Source: Fistulifera solaris
Lineage: Eukaryota
Assembly (NCBI GenBank): GCA_030295235.1
Contig: AP026133.1
Location: 186,001-250,000 of the forward strand
Length of the DNA stretch: 64,000 nt
Direction of reading: 5' to 3'
The notes beneath the pieces were generated by a model. It ran no database searches, was not told the origin of the DNA, and was given only the letters and a program-made list of their open reading frames with translations. Shown piece by piece: positions 18,383 through 53,116 of this stretch (the stretch's first letter is position 1; the number at the start of each line of letters is the position of its first letter). The position numbers and the translations under genes were made by a program.

Positions 18383-20033
18383 CTACAAATCCTCCTCCAG
18401 TACGCGTTCCGCTATGGGCCTCCAAAGTTTCGCCACACTCCTCGGTTGATGAAGAGCATGACAGAGTCCTCGTAACAGAATCGATGCGCGACCAACCATG
18501 AGATAATCTTTGGGAAATGTAATGATTTGATCGGCGGCTTGTAATTCTTCCATAAATAATTGGATGTGCTTCCCACCCGTGAGTCGTTCTTCGTCGTAGG
18601 CGACTACGGCATATTTGTACAGACACTCGGGAATCATATTACCGGACTGATAGCCAGCGGACTGGGTCAACCGGACTATTTCGGAAAAATTGTCGTCATC
18701 GAGAGCAATGACCAATCTACAAAATAGATGCCGCTGTTCCTTCGACAAACGCTTCACTTGTCCAAAATCAATCAACCCCAAGACTGGCGCTTCATTCTTT
18801 CCATAATAGCATAAGAGAATGTTACCTGGATGAGGGTCCCCGTTGAAAAAGCCATCGACCAACACCTGCTGCCCATGGATACGAATCACGTCGTCCACCA
18901 GTTGCGCGTGATTCAACGGCAAAGTGTTTCGGTCTCGGTAATTCATCCAAACTTGTCCCGGTAACCATCCGACGCTCATATTATACAGTCTCGCTCGAAG
19001 GTTATGCCACCGGCGTTTCATATCTTCCATCTGAATCCAGTATGAATATTGACGATTGCTCACAAACGGAATCTTGGATTTTTCTACGTACCGTTCTTGT
19101 TCCTGCACATACTCTTTGACGGACTTTTCCCGCCATTGACGCTTGCTGTTCGACTTCTCGTTTTAATGCTGCTGCCAATTTCTCACCGGGAAGATATTCC
19201 ATCACCAAAACACGCTTGGTACAATGCGCCAGGAGAGGTTTGGGGACGACGCAGGGCATATTCGCTTTCAACATATTCTGTCGGACCGTCTCCATATTCA
19301 TGGCTTCTTGTCGGTAATCGAATTCCGTCTGAAACTGATGTTCCATTTCCTGCAAAGCGGGAACATGTACCGGTTGCGCCACTTGACAAAACAAGGTCAT
19401 GGTCCGTACATCGCCGCGCAGCAAACGTTCGACGTGTGGATAACATACTTTCACCACGACCGGTTCTCCGGTACTTTTCAAGACGGCCTTGTGGACTTGT
19501 CCAATGGAAGCCGATCCGATGGGAACCGGGTCGATTTGCGCAAACAAATCCCGCCATTGCGGCATTTCTTCGTCCAGTATGGATGTAATAACAGAAAACG
19601 GTAAAGCCGGAACTTGATCTTGCAAGGGGTGCATCGTCTCTTGCCAAATGACCGGAAAAGCATCACCAATATTCGCGGCAGCCATTTGACCGCATTTAAT
19701 GTAAAATCCCTGTAATTGCAGTATCTTTTCGAGCGCTTGTTGCGAAGCTTTCTGATCCAAGGCATCCCACGTTTCTTGCGGTGATTGTCGAAACAAATGA
19801 TAACGATACACGACATACCACGGAATAGCGAACGAATAAAATTGAATGCTGCGCACGAGGCCTTCTACCGTACCTCCGACTAAATCGTAATAGTAGTAAC
19901 CTGCTCCGCATAAGACGAAAGCCGCCGTTGTCGTTTTCGAAAAATACGGTTGCGACGGCTCCCGTTTCTCTGTTGAGAACCGTCGCGCGATGATGCGCTT
20001 TGCGACCATGGAATGTCTCGTTCTTCGAATCAT
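18383..20033 (-). CDS. ABC1/AarF family kinase (ADCK-like); 1-bp frameshift near 19120
   Basis: Motifs LQGFYIKCGQ, LQDQVP, IGSASIGQVHKA, VVVKV, EFDYRQEA, FFNGDPHPGNILL and LIDFGQVK. Confidence 0.9.
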
Positions 20034-20418
20034 TCTTTATTTATGTAATGTAATAAACAATATAATGAGACAAAAATACTATCAGATAACATTAGGATGA
20101 TGAACCCCGTCATTTTGAACTGTTTTCGCTTTCATTTCTCATCGTCGTCGTTTTTTTCTTGTTTTCGCCATTGCTGAATCGTATCGGTACTGAATGACGT
20201 TACCACGTCCGGTGGGCGCGGTTCGAATTATTTTTCGGTGCACGAAAAAAAGGCGGAGCAAAGCGTTGAAAAAAAGACTTTCGCGGATTTTCCAGAGTAC
20301 CAAGTCATCTGCAAGCACACAAAGCTGTGAGTTGATCGTTTTTCTTGGAGAAGACTGGCGTGCGAAAATCTCCTCTTTTCATGAGGCGGATATTATTGAT
20401 GAGAAGCAAGTCGAAACG

Positions 20419-30905: not shown

Positions 30906-32039
30906 ATGTTCACTCCGTTTTCCCTACTCATGTCCGTTCTCCTCGTCCGCTCGATCGGGGCGTGGCAATCTCCAACAGTTTCTCGACTACATTATCGTCA
31001 TTCGTTGGTGTACCTGTATTCTACCAAACGAATTGTGTATTTGGGTACACCTGAAGTAGCCGCAACTACACTTTCGACGTTGCATGACGCTTCCCAAGAC
31101 AATGATTGGGAAATTGTCAGTGTCGTGACCCAGCCACCGACACGACGACGTCGGAAAGGTGACAAATTGGAAGCCAGCCCGGTCGGAAAGACTGCTGAAT
31201 CCCTCGGAATTCCGGTGTTGACTCCGCAAAAAGCAAACGATGCCCAATTTTTAGATGCCCTGCAACAATTACAACCCGATTTGTGTATTACGGCCGCGTA
31301 CGGACAATACTTGCCCAAACGATTCTTGGCAACACCGTCGGCTGGAACGGTCAATATTCATCCGAGTTTGTTACCGAAATGGCGTGGAGCAAGTCCGGTG
31401 CAACGATCGTTGCAAGCGGGGGACAATCCGGTCGGAGTGACGGTGCTCTATACGGTCTCGAAAATGGACGCGGGGCCCATCATTTCGCAAATTTCCGTAC
31501 CGGTGGAAGATTCTGAAACATCGGTCACGGTACTACCGAAATTATTTGAAATTGGTACGAACGAATTGATTCGAGTCTTACCCGACATTTTGTCGGGCCA
31601 AATCACACCCCAAACGGCGACACCCCAAGACGACGCGAAAGCTACGGCGGCCCATTTGATAACTACCGCGGAAAGTGCACTCAAAGTATGGAATCAAACC
31701 GCACGCGAATGTCACAATCAAAATCGTGGATTTGCCATGTGGCCCCAAACATATTTGTGGATTCAACCGGGGGATCGAGAACCGATCAAAATCAAAGTGT
31801 TGGAGACGCGGGTACCGGATATGGATCCCATTGAACCCGTAACAAATGTGGTGACCGTCGGTCCCACCAAACAGGATGGATTGTATGTCACATGCTTTGA
31901 TGGTTCCGTCTTGGAGCTTCTCAAAGTCCAACCAGCGACCAAGAAAGCGTTTGCGGCTCGCGATTTGCAGAATGGTTATCCCGGAGAGACGTTACGGTGG
32001 ATTCGGCAGATAGAAGAGGATGGGGAATCATCTAGCTAG
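30906..32039 (+). CDS. fmt: Methionyl-tRNA formyltransferase (organellar)
   Basis: RIVYLGTPEVA, VVTQP, TAAYGQYLP, NIHPSLLPKWRGASPVQ, KMDAGPII; N-terminal signal peptide. Confidence 0.95.
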   Translation: MFTPFSLLMSVLLVRSIGAWQSPTVSRLHYRHSLVYLYSTKRIVYLGTPEVAATTLSTLHDASQDNDWEIVSVVTQPPTRRRRKGDKLEASPVGKTAESLGIPVLTPQKANDAQFLDALQQLQPDLCITAAYGQYLPKRFLATPSAGTVNIHPSLLPKWRGASPVQRSLQAGDNPVGVTVLYTVSKMDAGPIISQISVPVEDSETSVTVLPKLFEIGTNELIRVLPDILSGQITPQTATPQDDAKATAAHLITTAESALKVWNQTARECHNQNRGFAMWPQTYLWIQPGDREPIKIKVLETRVPDMDPIEPVTNVVTVGPTKQDGLYVTCFDGSVLELLKVQPATKKAFAARDLQNGYPGETLRWIRQIEEDGESSS

Positions 32040-41640: not shown

Positions 41641-42714
41641 TCATCTATTTCGGAGTCCCAAAACATCTTTCACGAGTTGTTGATTGACGGGACACGAGAG
41701 GCCCCGTTGTTGACCTTGTTGTACGATAAATCCATTCAAATAGTCAATTTCGGTATCTCGTCCTGCTAATACATCTTGGAACATGGACGATTGATTGGCG
41801 GAAGTAGCCTTGATGACTGTTTCGACGTAGGTTTGCAGAGATTCCACCGCATATTCCTGGCCGGTCATTTGATGTGCGACCATCGAAACTTCTTGTACAA
41901 TTTCCATCATGTAAACATCAAGCGAAGATTCCGGAGGATGATTCCTTTGTTCATACAATCGTCGTATATCGCCATTCCGACATCGATACAGCGCCGTCAG
42001 CGGATTGATGACACAATTGGCGGCCAATTTGTACCACAATTCTCGATCCAGCGTTAAAGACGTTGTGCAATTTAAACCCGCGAGATCCAAGAGATGCGCC
42101 ATGGCGGGATAATCTTCAATCGATGTAGTGCCGTATCCGGCGTGGACTACGTGATAGAGTTCGTCGTCGTCGTCATCGTCGTCACGATACGCACCGTGAG
42201 TCGTCATGGCGAGGTGAATACGGGATCGTTCCTTCAAAAACTCTCGCAAGGTTTCCCGAATCGCCAAAGCACCATTGCAAAGGAGAATGATACGAGTTTG
42301 GGGAGAAATGCGATCGACAACTGTCGTAAGGGCCGGTAGAGCTTGATGCGCTTTCGTCGTGACGAAAAGGTTCTGAAACGGTCTCTTTTGATTCAATTCC
42401 CCGATCAAGGCGGCGGGAACCTGGACGGTGCGAGGAGCTCTTCGAGTGATATTGTGTTTGGCCTGCACGCAAATGGCGACTTTCGACCCGCCCAGGAGAC
42501 GATGTTGATGATTCTTCCGTAACAGCAATTGGACGGGGTAAGACGGTAACGCACTTCGAATTGATGCTGCCCACAGTAAACCGATGGAACCAGCTCCCAA
42601 TATGTGAATGGGTTCTTGAAAATCGAAAAAAGCCGCATTCGTGGCGTGTTGTTGGGAAGCCGAAGTCATCTTCTTTCTGTAGAATTGATCTTGTGTTCCC
42701 TCTTTTAGCCGCAA
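41641..42714 (-). CDS. panE: 2-dehydropantoate 2-reductase (ketopantoate reductase)
   Basis: IHILGAGSIG, VTTKAH, LLCNG, TTHGA, LWYKLAANCVINPLTAL, NQSSMFQDV..GRDTEIDYLNG. Confidence 0.92.
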   Translation of the reverse strand: MRLKEGTQDQFYRKKMTSASQQHATNAAFFDFQEPIHILGAGSIGLLWAASIRSALPSYPVQLLLRKNHQHRLLGGSKVAICVQAKHNITRRAPRTVQVPAALIGELNQKRPFQNLFVTTKAHQALPALTTVVDRISPQTRIILLCNGALAIRETLREFLKERSRIHLAMTTHGAYRDDDDDDDELYHVVHAGYGTTSIEDYPAMAHLLDLAGLNCTTSLTLDRELWYKLAANCVINPLTALYRCRNGDIRRLYEQRNHPPESSLDVYMMEIVQEVSMVAHQMTGQEYAVESLQTYVETVIKATSANQSSMFQDVLAGRDTEIDYLNGFIVQQGQQRGLSCPVNQQLVKDVLGLRNR

Positions 42715-44092: not shown

Positions 44093-46290
44093 ATGTCCTC
44101 GTCACACCATGATAAAAGAGGGGGAAAAAGGCCGGCGTTAGGCCTAAAAATGAGCGGCCTTGGGCTTGGGACGCGACCATGGCGGCCGCATTGCTTTTCT
44201 ATCAAAAAAAATGATGATTTAAAACGAGAACAACACTCATATCCTTCCTACTTTCGAACCATTTGCTGTTCGATCTCGTCTGTAACCCGCAAAATAGACA
44301 CCGTGTCGATCCCTGAACACCATCCTCCGGAGAAAGAGGAGGAAACTCCTTCGTTCGTCGACGCTTTTGCGGCACTCGAACTCGACGAAGAAGCTTTTTT
44401 TACGACCGACGAGCTCTTACATGCCTTGGATGGTATAGACGAATTAGGTGACGAAATTATCTATACCGGCGAAGACGAAGAAGAAGCCATCCTGGAACCC
44501 ATTCAAGTCCTTTCGTCGTCGCCCTTGCCCGATTTCCCGTTGCGCTGGAACGACAACGATAGCTTGTTGAAGGAAGGAAGTGAAGAAGACGCGGAGAGCG
44601 AGAACTGGTTGGAAACATCTAGTGATCTAGCAACAGAAACGGTAGATCCGTCAATTTTAGATCCGCCCGACGACGTGGACGATTTGGCTTTGTTAGAACA
44701 ATTGCAAAGTTTGTCCTTGGGAATCGATCATAATATGACATCTCACGACACGGAGTCTTGGAAAAAGAAGAAGGCAAAGAAAACGATGAGCTACCTCCGT
44801 ACATGTATTGTCAACCGTGCGACGATAGTTTGCCCGAAGCCACAGAGTTGAACTGGATTGACGAACCGGCGGAAGAAGAGTATTCGTTCAAACCACGCCA
44901 GGAAGCCGTGGAGGCGGCGGAGCACTTCATAAAAGCTATGAGTCTTATGAAAAATAATACACCAAAAAACGAACGATCTTGTTTGGGGCATAAGGAACGT
45001 GTCTTGGGTTTGGATTTATCGGAGTGTGGCAAGTTCTTGGCGACCGCCAGTGAAGATTCGACCGTCAAAATATGGGACACGAAATCCAATCGTTTACTGG
45101 CGACCTTGGATCACAATAAAAAGTTTGAGTGTTTGCGTGTCATTTGGGCACCGCAGAGCTGGCGTCAGGAGGAACGATATCTCGACGATCCACTTCAGTA
45201 TTTGCTAGCAACCGGAAGTGCGGATGGTGTCGTTTGTCTCTACTCGTGCTCGGATCCATTGACCAAACCGTGGATCCTACAGTCAAAAATCGATCATTCC
45301 CAGTTGTCGCATTTTGCCGCCACGGAAGACCCGGATGATAAGCCCCAAGTATACTCACTGCAATTCATTGACAATTGGAAAGGTTTAGGAAGTACGGGGG
45401 AGCAGAATAGCTTCTTGTTAACTTCTTCGGATGATCATGTGCATTTGTGGGAATGGGATATGCTGAAAAAAGTGAAACTAGAGATCGGAACGTCCGAGAC
45501 TCGAGTCGATTTTCGTGAAGTAATCAGTATCAAGTTTTCCAATTTACATGGACACGGATACGGTGTTCGTGTCGGTCAAGTGTCTAGTTCGGGGATGTTC
45601 TCGTTACCGCCAACGGTCGTGACGGAGGAAAAGCGTGATTTGACCAACGATATGATGCCAGTGGAAGGCACGTTTGGTGGAGATCGAAATCCCAATGGGC
45701 TTACATTTGTGTTTGATGCGCAGTACAATGCTACGAACGGTTTCTTGGGAGTGGCCTTGTCGGATGGGAGTCTACGAATCCTGAATGGACGCGGAATATG
45801 CTTATCGGTCCTCCAATTGCCGGGCATAAACTCTCATCTGACGTCGTTTGCCTGGGATCGTTCGGGGAGGCGCTTAGTGACCTGCGTCGCATCAGGGCAC
45901 ATTATCACTTGGAATATAGAGTCTCTCGATTCGGATATTCGAGCTACTTGTGTTGCTATTTTTGAAAGGGGGCACGAAGTAGGTAGACCGCTGTTCGGGG
46001 CTCGGTACATTGAGAATCACCAGCACACGGAAGAAATCCTTCTGTCTTGGGGTGTGGACGGGCGACTCTGTCTATGGGATGCTTGTGCGGAAGGAGAAGC
46101 TCACGGTCCACTAGCAATCCTTCTCGCGAAAAAATCGTACCCAATCTATTGTGTTGGTCTTCGACCAAGCCTAATGGCTGTAGGCGGTGGGAATGGCCAA
46201 AACGACTTTATCGGTGTCCCTGTCTACTTATATGACTTTGAACTTAAGTCACCTTCAAGGGAGAGTGCTACAGCTTTAACGGGTCCGTGA
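44093..46290 (+). CDS. WD40-repeat protein with an acidic N-terminus (start uncertain; frameshift near 44765)
   Basis: GHKERVLGLDLSECGKFLATASEDSTVKIWD, LATGSADG, LTSFAWD, SWGVDGRLCLWD. Confidence 0.8.
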
Positions 46291-46453
46291 TGAACCTGTT
46301 ACCCAGTTGAAATTTAATTACGAGTGTCTATGATGGCACCTTTCTCGGTAGCTACAAATTAGAAGTCTAATGGGCATAAATCAAATTATTACATTCAGAT
46401 TAAATCACAAAAGTGTAACCAGAACACCTCTGTAGCTCCGTTAGATGGATGGC

Positions 46454-47353
46454 TTACTCTTGGATATCCTCTTCAACAATTTCTTCGGGTTCTTCGGCAA
46501 CAAGAGCACGGTCCTTGCTCTTGCTGGACTCCTCAGGCTCATCATGGCCGTGTTCCTTGCCACTGAGGCCACGGCTGAAGAGGGCGCGGTCCTTGCTCTT
46601 GCTGGACTCCTCAGGCTCGTCATGGCCGTGTTCCTTGCCACTGAGGCCACGGCTGAAGAGGGCGCGGTCCTTGCTCTTGCTGGACTCCTCAGGCTCGTCA
46701 TGGCCGTGTTCCTTGCCACTGAGGCCACGGCTGAAGAGGGCGCGGTCCTTGCTCTTGCTGGACTCCTCAGGCTCGTCATGGCCGTGTTCCTTGCCACTGA
46801 GGCCGCGGCTGAAGAGGGCGCGGTCCTTGCTCTTGCTGGACTCCTCAGGCTCGTCGTGGCCGTGTTCCTTGCCACTGAGGCCACGGCTGAAGAGGGCGCG
46901 GTCCTTGCTCTTGCTGGACTCCTCAGGCTCGTCATGGCCGTGTTCCTTGCCACTGAGGCCACGGCTGAAGAGGGCGCGGTCCTTGCTCTTGCTGGACTCC
47001 TCAGGTTCATCATGGCCGTGTTCCTTGCCACTGAGGCCACGGCTGAAGAGGGCGCGGTCCTTGCTCTTGCTGGACTCCTCAGGTTCATCATGGCCGTGTT
47101 CCTTTCCACTTAATGCGCGGCTGAAGAGGGCGCGGTCCTTGCTCTTGCTGGATTCCTCAGGCTCATCGTGGCCGTGTTCCTTGCCACTAAGTCCGCGGTC
47201 GAAAAGTCCAGCTCCAGGGGCAACACCACTGGCGGCCGCGAACATGAAGGTTCCAGCAATAATGGCTCCGTAAATAGCACGCTTGCGGAACTTGCTCTCG
47301 GTGGCAACGGCTCCGTCAATGACCGTGTTCATCTCAACATCAAAGTTAGACAT
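46454..47353 (-). CDS. Repetitive peptide-precursor protein (299 aa): signal anchor + 9 x SGKEHGHDEPEESSKSKD separated by RAL-FS-RGL
   Basis: ATG at 47353; KFRKR followed by a hydrophobic segment; nucleotide variants between repeats are almost all synonymous in this frame (CAT/CAC, GAC/GAT, GAG/GAA, CGT/CGC). Confidence 0.85.
   Translation of the reverse strand: MSNFDVEMNTVIDGAVATESKFRKRAIYGAIIAGTFMFAAASGVAPGAGLFDRGLSGKEHGHDEPEESSKSKDRALFSRALSGKEHGHDEPEESSKSKDRALFSRGLSGKEHGHDEPEESSKSKDRALFSRGLSGKEHGHDEPEESSKSKDRALFSRGLSGKEHGHDEPEESSKSKDRALFSRGLSGKEHGHDEPEESSKSKDRALFSRGLSGKEHGHDEPEESSKSKDRALFSRGLSGKEHGHDEPEESSKSKDRALFSRGLSGKEHGHDEPEESSKSKDRALVAEEPEEIVEEDIQE
46500..47205. repeat. 78-bp coding tandem repeat, 9 copies
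   Basis: GTTCCTTGCCACT recurs every 78 bp from ~46552 to ~47176. Confidence 0.95.
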
Positions 47354-48676
47354 GGTTTGAAAAGGCTTTGAAGATGGGCAGAAGTATGAATCGACTGATA
47401 TGACTTTAGTGAGTTTGTGATTTGTGAGTATGCGAAAATGAAGCATAAAAGATCTCCTCTCTTGAAACACCGACGCCGATGATCGGCACTTCGCAGAAGG
47501 ATGACCTGGTGAAACCGAGCTGATACAAAAGTGTACTCTCATACCCAGTTTCAACCGCTAGCCCCTTTTACACTTGCCTCTTTCGGCGGTGTTTACATAG
47601 GAAAGGTCTTCGTTGGCGAGGTACACAACAGAAGTCGACAAGGCTTAAATACTTGTGTCACATAGAGAATTTTGTCAGAATTTCGAAGCGAAGTCTCGTG
47701 TCAACGGACAATAGTGTACTTCTTGGTGTTAGTTCAACGTTCAGAGACCGGTAAGAAAGGCCACACAAATTAGGCGGGACAGGAGACCAAGACGTTGAGA
47801 ACTTTCCAGGGAAATAATCTTAAGTCCAAAGTCCTTGGAACTCTCTACCATGGAGAACTAATTATTTTGTGTTTTTGCTTGTTGTGAGTTACGCAGTACT
47901 AAATCAGACCTTTGAAACTTCCGTTGGAGTTTCTACAAGCTAAGCGATAGTGAACCGCACATTGCTATGCACGTTCATGCATAAGGTCAAGGATAGAAAA
48001 GGGGAAAAGGCTTGCATGCAAAGGTTAAGAAGATGCTGAGCTTACCGAGTCAACAAAAGTGGAAGGAGTGCGGCAATAAAAGCTATCGTGAACGATGTCA
48101 TTTTCTTAAAGGAATGAGATATAGTTGGTCTTTTTTTTCGAGGTGCGACGTCTTGCTGATTAACTGTGACGTTGTCAACCTTGTACTGTACAACTGTCCC
48201 AAGAAACAGCTTGAAACCATGTTGAGAGCTAGTTTCGAGAATATTCTTTCGCTCAATAAGAAATTTCGGCTTTTTAGATTGTCTCTCGACTTATGTTGGA
48301 TCCAAGGGGGTTCCAATCATGCAGTGTTAAACAGGGATAGTAACCATTTGGGATGATGCTATGGTTTGATTTCAGACGTCAATGAATTAATTTTACTGCA
48401 AGGGGAAGCTTGCACTGGACACAAAGACAAAGAAAATGAATTTAGAATATACCTTGATATTTGGATCTTGGTACGCCGGGTATCTATTTCTTTGCTTGGT
48501 ATAGTATTCGCTACGAAATTCAAGCATGTGGACCGACAACACATGTGAATCGCATCAAATTACGATCTGAAAACGAATAATTTACAATTCTGGTTTCTAC
48601 GGTTGTTTTCACTTGAATTGCTCCGCCGGCATGCCCGACCACAAGTCCGGCTTTTCTCAACAAAGCAACAAGCCCT

Positions 48677-50501: not shown

Positions 50502-53116
50502 CTACTTCTTGAAAGAGCGAGCCAACTGAATGGCATCATCCATGCTGGGAATGAGGGGCGCCGTCTTGATGAACGTTTTGGCCAAAGCCAGACCATGTCG
50601 TTCGCACTGGGCCCGGATATCTGCATCTTTAATACTATCCAAATCTTCGACATGAGCAATCCCGACAATACGACGTAACATTTTCATACCGGCAAAGCCC
50701 AATGTATCCGCCAGTAAATCTTTCATGAAACTTTGCTGTGCGCGTGCCACGGCTTCCGGTGAATGCAATGTGTTGCGACCGTATACGAAACCAGTATGCG
50801 CCGTCGGATCGTTCCATAATTCCAAAAATTGACGCTCAAACGCCGCGTAAAAGGTAACAATCTGTTCCAAGATCCATTCGGCGTAGTCCGGACCCCGATG
50901 GGGGTGACCCGGTTGTGCGACATATGCCAAGAACAAATTGGCCACAAAGGCACCCGTATCAAACCCCATGGGACCGTAAAAGGCGAATTCGGGGTCGATG
51001 ACGTACGTCGCTTGAGGAGAAGGCGCGCACATGACGGAACCGGAATGCAAATCCGCATGAATCAATGCTTGTGTTGAACCGACGAATTTGTGCTTGTAAT
51101 GCGCCGCGGCGTGTTTCAACTCAATGTCTTCTTCAATCGCCTTTTTCTCATCATCGAGTTGCGGACTGGTCCAGCGATTGTTGGTGGCTTCCATGTACGG
51201 CTCGGTAAATACCACCTGTTCGGTCAATGCACACATTTCGGAATTAGCACTCCACATTTCTACTTTGGCACGCAATTCGGTCGTACTGAGAGCAAATCCA
51301 CTCGTCAAAAACAACGTTTTCCCACAAAAAGTACCCATATCCACCGCCATGGTGGGATAACGAATCCCTTGAATCAATCCTTTGCGCAATATAATATGAG
51401 GAGGTTTCAAATATTCCATCACAATCAATCCATTCGGCTTGGAAAAGTGGTACAAACTGGGAACAAATTCGGGACAAGCCGCCTTTTGTGCCGCCAGCGC
51501 TTGATATTCATAATACGCTCGATCCAGCGTCAATGGCCACGATTCCCCGACACAACGAACGTAGGGGAGTGATTGCTTCACAATCACCTGTTTTTCCGGT
51601 TTGTACTTGTTAGTGACAATGAACACCAAATTCAAATTCCCATCCCCCACTTCCACACATTCCAAGTCCTCCGGTTCCACGGCTTCCAAGATTTCCATGG
51701 CGGCCGGCGCATTTTGTGTCAAATACAGAGGCAACGTTTGTACCGTTTGTTCCGTGTAGTCCTGTGTGGAAGGTGCCGCAACGTCGGTTCCTTTCGATTC
51801 GACAAATCGTCGTACATCAAACGTGCCGTCCGCATTTGGATGCAACACACCTTTTCCGTGACAATACCGGTAATATACTGCGCCGGCGTGATATCAAACG
51901 CCGGATTCCATACGTTCATATCGGCCGGTGCTTGACTCGTTTGCACGAATTCGTGGGCCGGTCGTTCTTCAATGACACACTCTTGGCCGGCGGCCGTGGT
52001 CACATCAAGCGTGGTAAATGGTGCGGCCACATAGAATGGAATGTTGTGGGCGCGGGCCACCAATGCCAATTGGTACGTCCCAATTTTGTTCGCGGTATCA
52101 CCATTCGCACACACCCGATCGGCTCCCACCACGATCCCGTGCACTTTATGTCGTTGACAGTAAAAAGCCGCCATACTGTCCGCAATCAACGTCGCTCCCG
52201 GCATTTGTTCGGCTTGCAATTCAAAGGCCGTCAATCGCGATCCTTGATTGTACGGCCGTGTTTCCAACGCAATGATTGCTGCTAAGCGTTGTTGATCGCG
52301 GACCGCCCGGACAATGCCCAAGGCGGTTCCGTACAGTGCCGTGGCGAGGGACCCCGTATTGCAAATGGTCATGAGGGTGAGTTTTTCGTCGGAAGAGGAG
52401 TGTTTGGAGAGCAATTCGTGGGCACCATACTGTGACAATGTTTTATTGTCTTGGACATCCCGTTCGAGCATGAATTCGGCATGTTGTGTCACCGCCTGCA
52501 GCAAGCGTTGTCGTGCAGTTGTTGTGTTTGTATCGTCTTCGTCGTCGTCGATCATCACCATGCGATGACACACGTCCCGCAATTCTTGCACGGCATTGAA
52601 TAAATTGACCGCCGTCGGTCGGGATGTCATGAGAAAGTCCAATTTGGTTTCCAACAAAGCCAAGAGTGCTTCTGCATCATTCGGATCAAGTTGATCAAGT
52701 TCACGGGTGTGTGTCTGCAAATCGACCGCCAATCCCAATACGGCGACAATCGCAATTAACGGAGCTCCTACGAGAAGAAGAAGAAGAAGAAGAAGAAGAA
52801 GAAGAAGAAGAAGAAGAAGAAGAAGAAGAAGAAGAAGGAGAAGAAGAAGAAGAAGAAGAAGAAGCAGAAGCATAAGCAGAAGATTAAAAGGATGAGAAAC
52901 GACGTTTCACGCGACAAAGAGAGAGACGCTCGCATTCTCTTCGTACGCACCACGAATTTGCATATCCCGAATGGCGGTCCATGCCGCCTGTACATCTGAA
53001 ATTTCAATATACACGCGTTCCCCGGGCAACAACAATTGATTCAAGACGTGCAATTTAGGGGGTGTGCCCGGTTCGTAGATCAACGAGCGCAACAATTCCG
53101 TCGATTCTTCTGTCAT
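50502..53116 (-). CDS. mtnA-mtnK: Fused methylthioribose-1-phosphate isomerase (MtnA) and methylthioribose kinase (MtnK); intron 52768-52950; 1-bp frameshift near 51852
   Basis: MtnA motifs MQIRG|APLIA, SRPTAVNL, TICNTGSLAT, ETRPYNQGSRLT, GADRVCANGDTANKIGTY, NPAFDITP...IVTEKG; MtnK motifs EVGDGNLNLVF, VKQSLPYVR, HADLHSGS, IDPEFAFYGP.GFD, RRIVGIAHVED. Confidence 0.92.
52773..52864. repeat. (GAA/TTC)n microsatellite, about 30 units, intronic
   Basis: Near-perfect GAA run with one GGA interruption, ending just before the intron acceptor on the minus strand. Confidence 0.95.

What the first reader, a model, noticed from the sequence alone, without database searches (positions are those of the whole stretch)
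46454..47353. RXL-punctuated polyprotein predicted to release nine identical His/Glu/Ser/Lys peptides (silacidin/silaffin-like precursor)
Seen: after KFRKR and a hydrophobic anchor, the 18-mer SGKEHGHDEPEESSKSKD repeats 9 times, each bounded by RAL and RGL, and a final acidic peptide VAEEPEEIVEEDIQE follows the last RAL. The copies differ almost only at synonymous sites; the one spacer change (RGL to RAL) keeps the RXL motif, which points to selection on both peptide and cleavage site. Known: RXL (for example RRL) is the processing motif in diatom silacidin and silaffin precursors, whose Ser are phosphorylated and, in silaffins, Lys are polyamine-modified. Inference: this may be an undescribed zwitterionic peptide family for biosilica formation, adhesion or metal binding (HGH plus acidic residues). 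The sequence is not one I recognise.
Basis: partly seen in the sequence, partly recalled or inferred. Interest (0 to 1): 0.85.

Follow-up and report, generated by a model that had tools for sequence, protein, structure and literature searches.

The report
Unannotated diatom repeat-peptide precursor gene
A diatom genome carries an unannotated gene for a small membrane-inserted protein that looks built to be cut into nine copies of one acidic, histidine-containing peptide, the design used for diatom silica-shell peptides, but what the peptide does is untested.

Summary
Window 46454..47353 (minus strand) is a single-exon 299-codon ORF. It has a 25-residue hydrophilic head ending in KFRKR and a 26-residue hydrophobic segment. 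Then come nine identical copies of an 18-residue His/Glu/Ser/Lys peptide in a 26-residue (78-nt) unit, and an acidic tail. Differences between copies are almost all silent.

The gene is real. Three unnamed metagenomic proteins share the head, the hydrophobic segment and the repeat plan. Pieces of it occur in a freshwater metatranscriptome, with silent changes only. It is missing from public protein predictions although neighbouring genes are present. The host is a diatom.

Best reading (about 0.55): a secretory polyprotein cut after Leu of the RxL sites, as in silaffin and silacidin precursors. A silica role is a minority bet (about 0.3), and metal binding is comparably likely. Cleavage, location and modifications are untested. 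It is a new member of a known kind.

The parts
46454..47353 (-). Complete single-exon coding sequence, 299 codons plus a TAA stop at 46454..46456. The start ATG is at 47353 in an ACC-ATG context.
   Evidence: All three relatives start at the aligned Met. An in-frame stop lies upstream at 47560.
47279..47353 (-). Residues 1-25: hydrophilic head ending in KFRKR. The F-R-[K/R]-R part is invariant in the 4 family members. On the positive-inside rule it is probably the cytosolic side.
   Evidence: Alignment A1 has invariant F21, R22 and R24. The topology is inferred.
47201..47278 (-). Residues 26-51: Ala/Gly/Ile/Phe-rich hydrophobic segment. It is either a signal anchor or the core of a signal peptide with an unusually long n-region.
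   Evidence: The best 19-residue Kyte-Doolittle window starts at residue 26 and scores 1.68; nothing beyond residue 56 exceeds -0.74. The AlphaFold2 single-sequence model has a helix at residues 3-41.
47189..47206 (-). Residues 50-55, LFDRGL: the first junction site, immediately after the hydrophobic segment. In all 4 members the R of this first site lies at residue 53 or 55.
46502..47188 (-). Residues 56-284: the repeat array. It holds 8 full 26-residue units (18-mer + RAL + FS + R[G/A]L) and a ninth 18-mer + RAL.
46457..46501 (-). Residues 285-299: acidic C-terminal tail, pI 4.05 and charge -8.2 at pH 7. The relatives P0002 and P0003 also have a tail after a last RxL that lacks the Phe.

Best explanation
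This is an unannotated, single-exon diatom gene for a secretory polyprotein precursor.

Proposed mechanism:
1. The conserved head (F-R-K-R) and hydrophobic segment insert the protein into the ER with the repeat region in the lumen. This step is inferred.
2. An endoprotease of the secretory pathway then cuts after the Leu of each conserved [L/M]-F-x-R-x-L junction. This would be the still unidentified 'RXL' protease that processes silaffin, silacidin and other diatom cell-wall precursors. The step is inferred by analogy and from conservation.
3. The first cut, after residue 55, frees the array from the membrane. The later cuts release nine copies of one peptide plus an acidic tail. The hydrophobic junction remnant (RAL-FS-RGL, or part of it) is probably trimmed off, as RRIL and RRNL are in silaffins.

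The cargo is disordered. It carries two His, six acidic residues and a Ser-Lys patch, so its charge switches from about -3.4 at pH 7 to about -1 at pH 5.5.

My single most likely use is as a silacidin-like acidic peptide of the silica-forming compartment or cell wall. I put that at about 0.3 overall. Divalent-metal binding by secreted peptides comes close behind, at about 0.2. The 0.55 below is for the processing mechanism, not for the silica role.
For: The frame is under constraint:
- 9 of 10 variable nucleotide columns among units 1-8 are silent on their own. The binomial P is 3.6e-6 if all changes are equally likely and 3.6e-4 if only transitions are counted.
- All 7 differences listed in sequencing-run contigs are third-position and silent. 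Three of them lie in the unique N-terminal part and come from a freshwater metatranscriptome.

A family exists:
- phmmer over 1.84 billion representatives gave P0002 (E 5e-16), P0003 (1.6e-10) and P0009 (2.7e-7).
- All pairwise BLASTP values among the four are 2e-7 or better.
- All four share a 22-30-residue head with F-R-[K/R]-R, a hydrophobic segment of about 16-26 residues, a first F-x-R-x-L with R at residue 53 or 55, and then 2-3 repeats (9 in the window protein).

Junctions are conserved while the cargo drifts:
- F-x-R-x-L sites number 9, 2, 3 and 2 in P0001, P0002, P0003 and P0009.
- Each is followed by [S/G/H]-[G/S]-K.
- The x position varies (G, A, D, N, K, S), as an RxL motif predicts.
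- RxL is enriched over shuffles in every member: 18 vs 1.24, 3 vs 0.44, 5 vs 0.47 and 3 vs 0.28, with 0, 12, 0 and 2 of 2000 shuffles reaching the observed count.

The repeat region has no predicted structure. The AlphaFold2 single-sequence model gives pLDDT of about 40-47 and no secondary structure beyond residue 41.

The host is a diatom. The 5 organism names visible among relatives of the neighbouring gene product P0021 are all diatoms.

Literature, read as passages only:
- RXL at the ends of repeats in Sil1p and silacidin precursors, and mature silaffins lacking RRIL/RRNL (PMC4557024).
- Cleavage C-terminal of the Leu by an unknown protease (10.1101/518332; PMC5525289).
- His/Asp-rich domains in the silica proteins glassin and Slp1 (10.1101/518332).
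Against: - No cleavage product, localisation or modification has been observed.
- The N-terminus is not a textbook signal peptide: 25 hydrophilic residues precede the hydrophobic core. No signal-peptide or topology predictor was available here.
- Runs X1-X3 are only guessed to be RNA, contigs cannot show strand, and DNA can contaminate the metatranscriptome X6.
- There are only 3 relatives. All are unnamed single-member metagenome clusters, so their taxon is unknown.
- The first RAL of each unit is not conserved in 2 of 3 relatives.
- Four of the nine DNA units are identical, so copy identity owes much to recent duplication.
- Four of the 7 silent run variants lie inside the array and may be cross-matches between copies.
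- Against a silaffin-type role, each 18-mer has only 3 Lys and no lysine cluster.
- Against a silacidin-type role, the peptide carries Lys and His.
- P0009 lacks the Ser-Lys patch altogether.
- RxL is a three-residue motif, and it has been studied almost only in silica proteins. The link from RXL to silica may therefore be ascertainment bias.
Confidence: 0.55

Rival explanations
1. The processing is as in the best explanation, but the use is different. The released His/acid peptides act outside silica formation. They could be secreted or wall-bound ligands or buffers for divalent metals (Zn, Cu, Ni, Fe), or, less likely, a multi-copy peptide signal such as a pheromone or stress signal, in the manner of the fungal alpha-factor.
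For: The residues kept in all four members' cargo are the histidines, the acidic residues and the G-K start. The Ser-Lys patch is not kept: P0009's unit has 5 His, 6 acidic residues and no Ser-Lys patch. As a lead only, the contig word depth over the unique 5' part was 492 and 229 in the small runs X2 and X3 against 19 in X1 of the same study. This could mean strongly condition-dependent expression, but the tool warns that such depth is a poor measure of expression.
Against: No metal-binding test was done. There is no Cys and no canonical N-terminal Cu/Ni site. His/Asp-rich stretches also occur in silica-precipitating proteins (10.1101/518332, passages). No receptor or condition is known. The held library gave no paper on peptide pheromone precursors in diatoms (listing only).
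Confidence: 0.25
2. The protein is not cut. It is a membrane-anchored protein with a long disordered, acidic, His-bearing luminal or extracellular domain. The regularly spaced hydrophobic L-F-x-R-x-L elements would then be binding or membrane-contact motifs, not cleavage sites.
For: The hydrophobic segment (26 residues, KD 1.68) and the conserved membrane-proximal basic motif suit a stable type II anchor. Conservation of a short linear motif does not by itself show proteolysis.
Against: The first site lies directly at the luminal end of the anchor in all 4 members. A last RxL precedes the tail in 3 of 4; P0009 ends early. The x position is free while R and L are fixed. Copy number varies from 2 to 9 with homogenised cargo. 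This is the pattern of polyprotein precursors.
Confidence: 0.17
3. It is a young orphan ORF or a neutral minisatellite that happens to be open, with no functional product.
For: Tandem arrays give open frames on both strands here: four other ORFs of 216-274 codons overlap it. The gene is absent from the public annotation.
Against: Relatives exist with a conserved non-repetitive N-terminal part. Variation is silent only in this frame. The coding part is present in an RNA library. GC3 of the unit is 0.81, against 0.505 +/- 0.04 for 21 neighbouring ORFs.
Confidence: 0.03

Closest known systems
Silacidin precursor of Thalassiosira pseudonana
   Same: A diatom precursor that is highly repetitive and is cut into many copies of a short acidic Ser/Asp/Glu-rich peptide, with RXL motifs at the ends of the repeats (PMC4557024, passages). 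It is lineage-restricted, with no homologues in Phaeodactylum or Fragilariopsis (PMC5649158, passages). The present family is similarly rare.
   Different: No sequence relationship was found: no named hit. The cargo here contains 3 Lys and 2 His per 18 residues and is only mildly acidic (pI 5.05). The junction is an extended L-F-x-R-x-L, not RRL (the RRL form is recalled, not checked here). The N-terminus has a 25-residue hydrophilic head before the hydrophobic core. Phosphorylation and silica association are untested.
Silaffin precursor Sil1p of Cylindrotheca fusiformis (natSil-1A/1B)
   Same: A signal sequence is followed by an RXL, then by repeat units R1-R7 that each end in RRIL or RRNL, which is removed from the mature peptides (PMC4557024, passages). 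Ser-Lys patches are present in the cargo.
   Different: Silaffins are Lys-rich and polycationic after modification. This peptide is net negative at pH 7 and has no lysine cluster. His is conserved here and is not a silaffin feature. No homology was found.
Fungal Kex2-processed repeat proteins, e.g. the alpha-factor pheromone precursor (recalled, not checked in a call)
   Same: The same logic: an ER-targeted precursor with tandem identical peptides separated by conserved protease sites and spacer residues that are trimmed away.
   Different: Those use dibasic K-R sites cut by Kex2. No K-R or R-R lies at the junctions here. The kingdom is different and there is no homology.
His/Asp-rich domains of the silica proteins glassin (sponge) and Siliplant1 (sorghum)
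   Same: Repetitive, disordered proteins that combine His/acidic stretches with Lys-containing stretches. Slp1 also carries RXL at some repeat ends (10.1101/518332, passages).
   Different: They are unrelated in sequence and organism and are much larger proteins. The resemblance is in composition only.

Membership tests
Diatom RXL-processed repetitive peptide precursors (silaffin/silacidin type) | Encoded in a diatom nuclear genome | tested here: met
   Among the listed relatives of the neighbouring gene product P0021, 5 rows show an organism name and all 5 are diatoms: Mayamaea, Bacillariaceae sp., Nitzschia sp., Skeletonema and 'Cosci...'. The window's Pfam content is that of ordinary eukaryotic nuclear genes.
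Diatom RXL-processed repetitive peptide precursors (silaffin/silacidin type) | N-terminal ER signal peptide | tested here: inconclusive
   A hydrophobic segment at residues 26-51 (KD19 1.68) follows a 25-residue hydrophilic head, and a helix is predicted at 3-41. This could be a signal anchor or a signal peptide with a long n-region. No SignalP or TMHMM-type tool was available.
Diatom RXL-processed repetitive peptide precursors (silaffin/silacidin type) | R-x-L at the end of the pro-region and of every repeat unit | tested here: met
   There are 18 RxL in total, 9 of them in F-x-R-x-L form, one before each peptide copy. 0 of 2000 shuffles reach 18.
Diatom RXL-processed repetitive peptide precursors (silaffin/silacidin type) | The junction motif is conserved in relatives while the cargo diverges | tested here: met
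   P0002, P0003 and P0009 have 2, 3 and 2 F-x-R-x-L sites at their junctions (alignment A1).
Diatom RXL-processed repetitive peptide precursors (silaffin/silacidin type) | Actual endoproteolytic release of the peptides | not testable with these tools
   This needs mass spectrometry or Edman sequencing of the native products.
Silaffins | Lys-rich cargo with lysine clusters that carry polyamine or methyl modifications, and phosphoserine (definition partly recalled; PMC4557024 passages for the modifications) | tested here: not met
   For composition: 3 Lys in 18 residues, charge -3.4 at pH 7, no cluster. The modifications are not testable here.
Silacidins | Strongly acidic Ser/Asp/Glu-rich peptides, phosphorylated on Ser, recovered from biosilica | tested here: inconclusive
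   Ser+Asp+Glu make up 10 of 18 residues, but there are also 3 Lys and 2 His, and the pI is 5.05. Phosphorylation and silica association are not testable here.
Silaffins/silacidins | Sequence similarity to a described member | tested here: not met
   phmmer against 1.84 billion representatives gave 18 hits at E of 0.001 or better. I read 11 of the 18. Three are the unnamed relatives and 8 are unrelated repeat proteins. The other 7 were not read. No named hit appeared. These families are not defined by sequence similarity, so this feature weighs little.
Kex2-processed repeat proteins | Dibasic K-R or R-R directly before each released peptide | tested here: not met
   The junctions are R-x-L followed by S-G-K. 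There is no dibasic pair at the cut position. The resemblance is functional only.
PEXEL/TEXEL-type export motifs of apicomplexans (recalled) | R-x-L-x-[E/Q/D], or R-R-L near the N-terminus, cut after Leu by an aspartyl protease | tested here: not met
   The fifth position is Gly (R-G-L-S-G), and the motif recurs 9-18 times and not once. Only the Arg at P3 and Leu at P1 are shared.

The most novel reading that the evidence does not exclude
The four proteins define a new class of diatom ribosomal peptide precursors that has nothing to do with silica. On this reading, a membrane-tethered polyprotein is cut at an extended F-x-R-x-L site, and its multi-copy His/acid peptides are secreted as metal-scavenging or metal-buffering ligands or as an extracellular peptide signal. 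It would be switched on massively under particular conditions. The RXL protease would then be a general pro-peptide convertase of diatoms, not a cell-wall speciality, and this nine-site substrate would be a handle for identifying it.
Probability: 0.15. Interest if true: 0.8.

Novelty: new member of a known kind. Interest (0 to 1): 0.5.

Why it matters
Peptide precursors punctuated by RXL are how diatoms make the small modified peptides that shape silica, yet few such families are known and the protease is still unidentified. Three things make this gene useful:

- It adds a family with no sequence relationship to the known ones.
- It shows that gene callers miss this kind of gene. It is absent from the public protein set while neighbouring genes are present.
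- Comparison of four members yields an extended consensus for the cut site: Leu/Met-Phe-x-Arg-x-Leu, followed by x-Gly/Ser-Lys. That is a concrete, testable statement about the protease's specificity, and the protein offers a natural nine-site substrate.

If the peptide is in the frustule, it would be a new His-containing, pH-switchable component. If it is not, RXL processing is broader than biomineralisation.

Tried and rejected
Homologue and database searches:
- Word-indexed homologue search with the whole protein, candidates of 164-524 aa: nothing. The relatives are 101-150 aa and lay outside that length range.
- Profile search with alignment A1: only the same three proteins.
- Two scans of JGI metagenome contigs, one with A1 and one with P0001: 49 and 74 pattern matches, none confirmed by tblastn. 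No DNA of the relatives could be read, so no dN/dS between species and no gene context for them.
- Own-genome search: no genome is held, so paralogues outside the window are unknown. Within the window, tblastn of the four proteins gave 14 hits outside the locus, all with E of 0.085 or worse.
- Pfam: the only hit above cut-off (PF24410, 34 bits) has no single stretch that passes on its own. It is a repeat-inflated composition match and I reject it.
- ESM Atlas: no usable hit. PDB sequences: none. Rfam and tRNA scans of the window: none. The Atlas look-up of a neighbouring gene gave no useful taxonomy.
- Earlier findings of this scan: nothing relevant.

Sequencing runs:
- Runs X2 and X3 have contigs only between about 46506 and 47423, while X1 also covers both flanks. 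The tool states that parts without cover prove nothing, so I draw no transcript boundaries from this.
- The 30-letter loose end of an X2 contig at 47373 has no match in the window at up to 3 mismatches. There is no AG acceptor at that point, so I reject a simple 5'-UTR intron. An allele, a paralogue or a library adapter remain possible.

Literature:
- No paper in the held library came up for histidine-rich RXL repeat precursors in diatoms (listing), for a link between diatom RXL and plasmepsin V-type proteases (listing), or for an identified RXL protease since 2020 (listing: 3 papers, none about it by title or abstract start).
- The comparative silica-proteome preprint 10.1101/2021.09.18.460806 has zero occurrences of 'histidine', 'signal anchor', 'repetitive' or 'type II'.
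- Supplementary protein lists of the silica-proteome papers were not opened and could hold a relative.

The same numbers were then obtained from the stored files by coordinates.
Full report
1. What is in the sequence

The minus strand of window 46454..47353 holds an uninterrupted ORF of 299 codons. In order it encodes:
- a 25-residue hydrophilic head ending in KFRKR;
- a 26-residue Ala/Gly/Ile/Phe-rich hydrophobic segment;
- the hexapeptide LFDRGL;
- nine copies of one 18-residue peptide, starting at residues 56, 82... 264 at an exact 26-residue spacing;
- a 15-residue acidic tail.

The best 19-residue Kyte-Doolittle window starts at residue 26 and scores 1.68. Nothing after residue 56 rises above -0.74.

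The repeat unit is the 18-mer, then RAL, then FS, then RGL. Tandem Repeats Finder reports period 78, 8.7 copies and 97% matches at 46509..47188. The only other tandem array in the 64 kb at score 100 or more is an AGA trinucleotide run.

2. Is this frame really coding?

Ten nucleotide columns vary among units 1-8. They fall in 8 codons, of which 7 are silent. The only replacement is Gly to Ala in the x position of the R-x-L of unit 1.

Taken singly, 9 of the 10 columns are silent. In this unit only 46 of 234 possible single changes are silent, or 26 of 78 transitions. This gives P = 3.6e-6, or 3.6e-4 counting transitions only. The columns are not fully independent events because units copy each other. 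Units 4, 6, 7 and 8 are identical in DNA, so recent homogenisation explains much of the identity. The silent-only pattern is nevertheless what purifying selection on this frame predicts.

The start at 47353 has an ACC-ATG context, and an in-frame stop lies upstream at 47560. All relatives begin at the aligned Met. GC3 is 0.81 in the unit, against 0.505 +/- 0.04 in 21 neighbouring ORFs.

3. Presence in sequencing runs

One search found 11 runs holding part of the stretch, and I laid four of them.
- X1, X2 and X3 come from one study and one coded organism. The tool only guesses that they are RNA. Their contigs match the coding region; a 205-nt piece over the unique 5' part has 0 differences.
- X6 is a freshwater metatranscriptome library. 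It has 11 contigs on the gene, 6 at 99% identity or more and 5 at 95-99%. One of them is a 120-nt piece over the head and hydrophobic region with 4 differences.

All 7 differences that the tool lists inside the coding region are third-position and silent. Three lie in the unique part (X6). Four lie in the array, where cross-matching between copies cannot be excluded.

Contigs show neither strand nor transcript ends, and DNA can be present in RNA libraries. Transcription is therefore likely but not proven.

4. The host, and the gene's absence from annotation

The exact products of two neighbouring ORFs (41641..42669 -, and 30906..32039 +) are in the public protein collection, from NCBI, UniRef and EukProt, on a 268,757-bp contig. 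This was 2 of the 10 ORFs looked up.

The repeat protein is not in the collection. No near-identical protein appeared in the word-indexed search or in the exhaustive phmmer search. The gene therefore seems to have been missed by the public annotation.

Among the listed relatives of the neighbouring formyltransferase P0021, the 5 rows that show an organism name are all diatoms. The best named one, Mayamaea pseudoterrestris, is 59% identical. The other window ORFs are ordinary eukaryotic nuclear genes: WD40, Sec61/SecY family, NIP7, IF-2B family, ABC1 kinases, ankyrin and others.

5. Relatives, and what they conserve

phmmer against 1.84 billion representatives gave 18 proteins at E of 0.001 or better. 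I read 11 of them and did not read the other 7.
- Three are true relatives: P0002 (120 aa, E 5e-16), P0003 (150 aa, 1.6e-10) and P0009 (101 aa, 2.7e-7).
- Eight are unrelated repeat proteins.

The three relatives are single-member clusters from metagenomes and carry no names. All pairwise BLASTP E-values among the four proteins are 2e-7 or better. A profile search found no further member.

The alignment shows an invariant F-R-x-R before the hydrophobic segment, then L-F-x-R-x-L-x-G-K. The site table shows the following:
- Every repeat junction in every member is [L/M]-F-[S/N/D]-R-x-L followed by [S/G/H]-[G/S]-K. There are 9, 2, 3 and 2 such sites in P0001, P0002, P0003 and P0009.
- The R of the first site lies at residue 53 or 55 in all four, directly after the hydrophobic segment.
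- The x residue is free (G, A, D, N, K, S).
- A last R-x-L without the Phe precedes the C-terminal tail in the three members that have a tail.

The cargo between sites has diverged in length (18-22 residues before the junction) and in sequence. It keeps only the G-K start, two or more His, and acidic residues. The Ser-Lys patch is present in 3 of 4 members and absent from P0009.

P0002 and P0003 have non-basic hydrophobic residues there.

RxL is enriched over residue shuffles in all four members. The counts are 18 vs 1.24, 3 vs 0.44, 5 vs 0.47 and 3 vs 0.28, and 0, 12, 0 and 2 of 2000 shuffles reach the observed value.

6. Mechanism

Three features together are the signature of a polyprotein precursor: fixed junctions with drifting cargo, variable copy number (2 to 9), and a first site at the luminal end of the targeting segment.

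The literature passages I read say the following:
- In diatoms, RXL motifs end the pro-region and the repeat units of the silaffin precursor Sil1p and of silacidin, frustulin and cingulin precursors, and mature silaffins lack the RRIL/RRNL (PMC4557024).
- Cleavage is C-terminal of the Leu and the protease is unknown (10.1101/518332; PMC5525289; PMC5647440; PMC5501833).

I therefore infer three steps: ER insertion with the repeats in the lumen, cutting after each junction Leu, and release of nine peptides and an acidic tail. Each of these steps is inferred and none is shown.

The positive-inside argument for topology is recalled knowledge and was not tested. So is the resemblance of the membrane-proximal basic motif to ER-export signals of type II Golgi proteins.

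The single-sequence AlphaFold2 model has a helix at residues 3-41 and no structure in the repeats (pLDDT about 40-47). This fits a disordered cargo, but single-sequence models are weak evidence.

7. What the peptide may do

The 18-mer has pI 5.05. Because of its two His, its charge is -3.4 at pH 7 and -1.0 at pH 5.5.

For a silica role:
- The processing style is that of silica-peptide precursors.
- The peptide is Ser/acid-rich with a Ser-Lys patch.
- His/Asp domains occur in glassin and Slp1 (10.1101/518332).
- The narrow distribution is typical of such genes; silacidin has no homologue in Phaeodactylum or Fragilariopsis (PMC5649158).

Against a silica role:
- There is no lysine cluster.
- The acidity is only moderate.
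- The Ser-Lys patch is not conserved.
- There is no localisation or silicon-response evidence.

The conserved His-plus-acid chemistry fits metal binding equally well. I put processing at about 0.55, a silica or cell-wall role at about 0.3 overall, metal binding or another secreted role at about 0.25, and an uncut anchored protein at about 0.17.

8. Novelty

The kind of thing, an RXL-punctuated repetitive peptide precursor of diatoms, is known. This family is not known: it has no real Pfam match and no PDB, Atlas or named relative. My literature searches returned nothing similar (listings plus the passages cited). I did not open any supplementary protein lists.

It differs from the described precursors in its long conserved head, the extended Phe-containing junction, and its His-bearing cargo.

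9. Left open

- The 30 unmatched letters at the 5' end of an X2 contig, 20 nt upstream of the ATG.
- Paralogues elsewhere in the genome, since no genome is held.
- The taxon and gene context of the three relatives, since both metagenome scans found nothing.

Noticed in passing
window 47373 (20 nt upstream of the ATG at 47353): A contig of run X2 matches 47169..47373 exactly and then continues for 30 letters that are unlike the window and occur nowhere else in it at up to 3 mismatches. There is no AG acceptor at that point. An allele, a paralogue with another 5' region, or a library adapter are all possible.
   Followed up: partly
window 47169..47373: Contig word depth over the unique 5' part of the gene was 492 (X2) and 229 (X3), against 19 (X1), in runs of one study. 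If these are RNA, this hints at very strong, condition-dependent expression. The tool warns that such depth is a poor measure, so this is a lead only.
   Followed up: no
window 52773..52883: An (AGA)n trinucleotide run of 37 copies, 90% matches, overlaps the 5' end of the minus-strand IF-2B-family ORF (51719..52873). On that strand it reads TCT, so it would give a long poly-Ser N-terminus if translated.
   Followed up: no
window 18383..20036 (-) and 3322..4521 (+): Two overlapping minus-strand ORFs (18383..19162 and 19002..20036) each carry part of one ABC1 atypical-kinase domain (profile positions 149-242 and 2-169). This suggests an intron or a frameshift between them. A second ABC1 gene lies at 3322..4521.
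   Followed up: no
window 46290..46454: The repeat gene and the WD40 gene (44803..46290, +) converge, with only 163 nt between their stop codons. Their 3' untranslated regions probably overlap.
   Followed up: no
protein P0007 (a hit, not in the window): A 361-residue protein from the public collection has a signal-peptide-like start and five long near-identical repeats, each bounded by an R-R-D motif. It looks like another, unrelated secreted repeat precursor.
   Followed up: no
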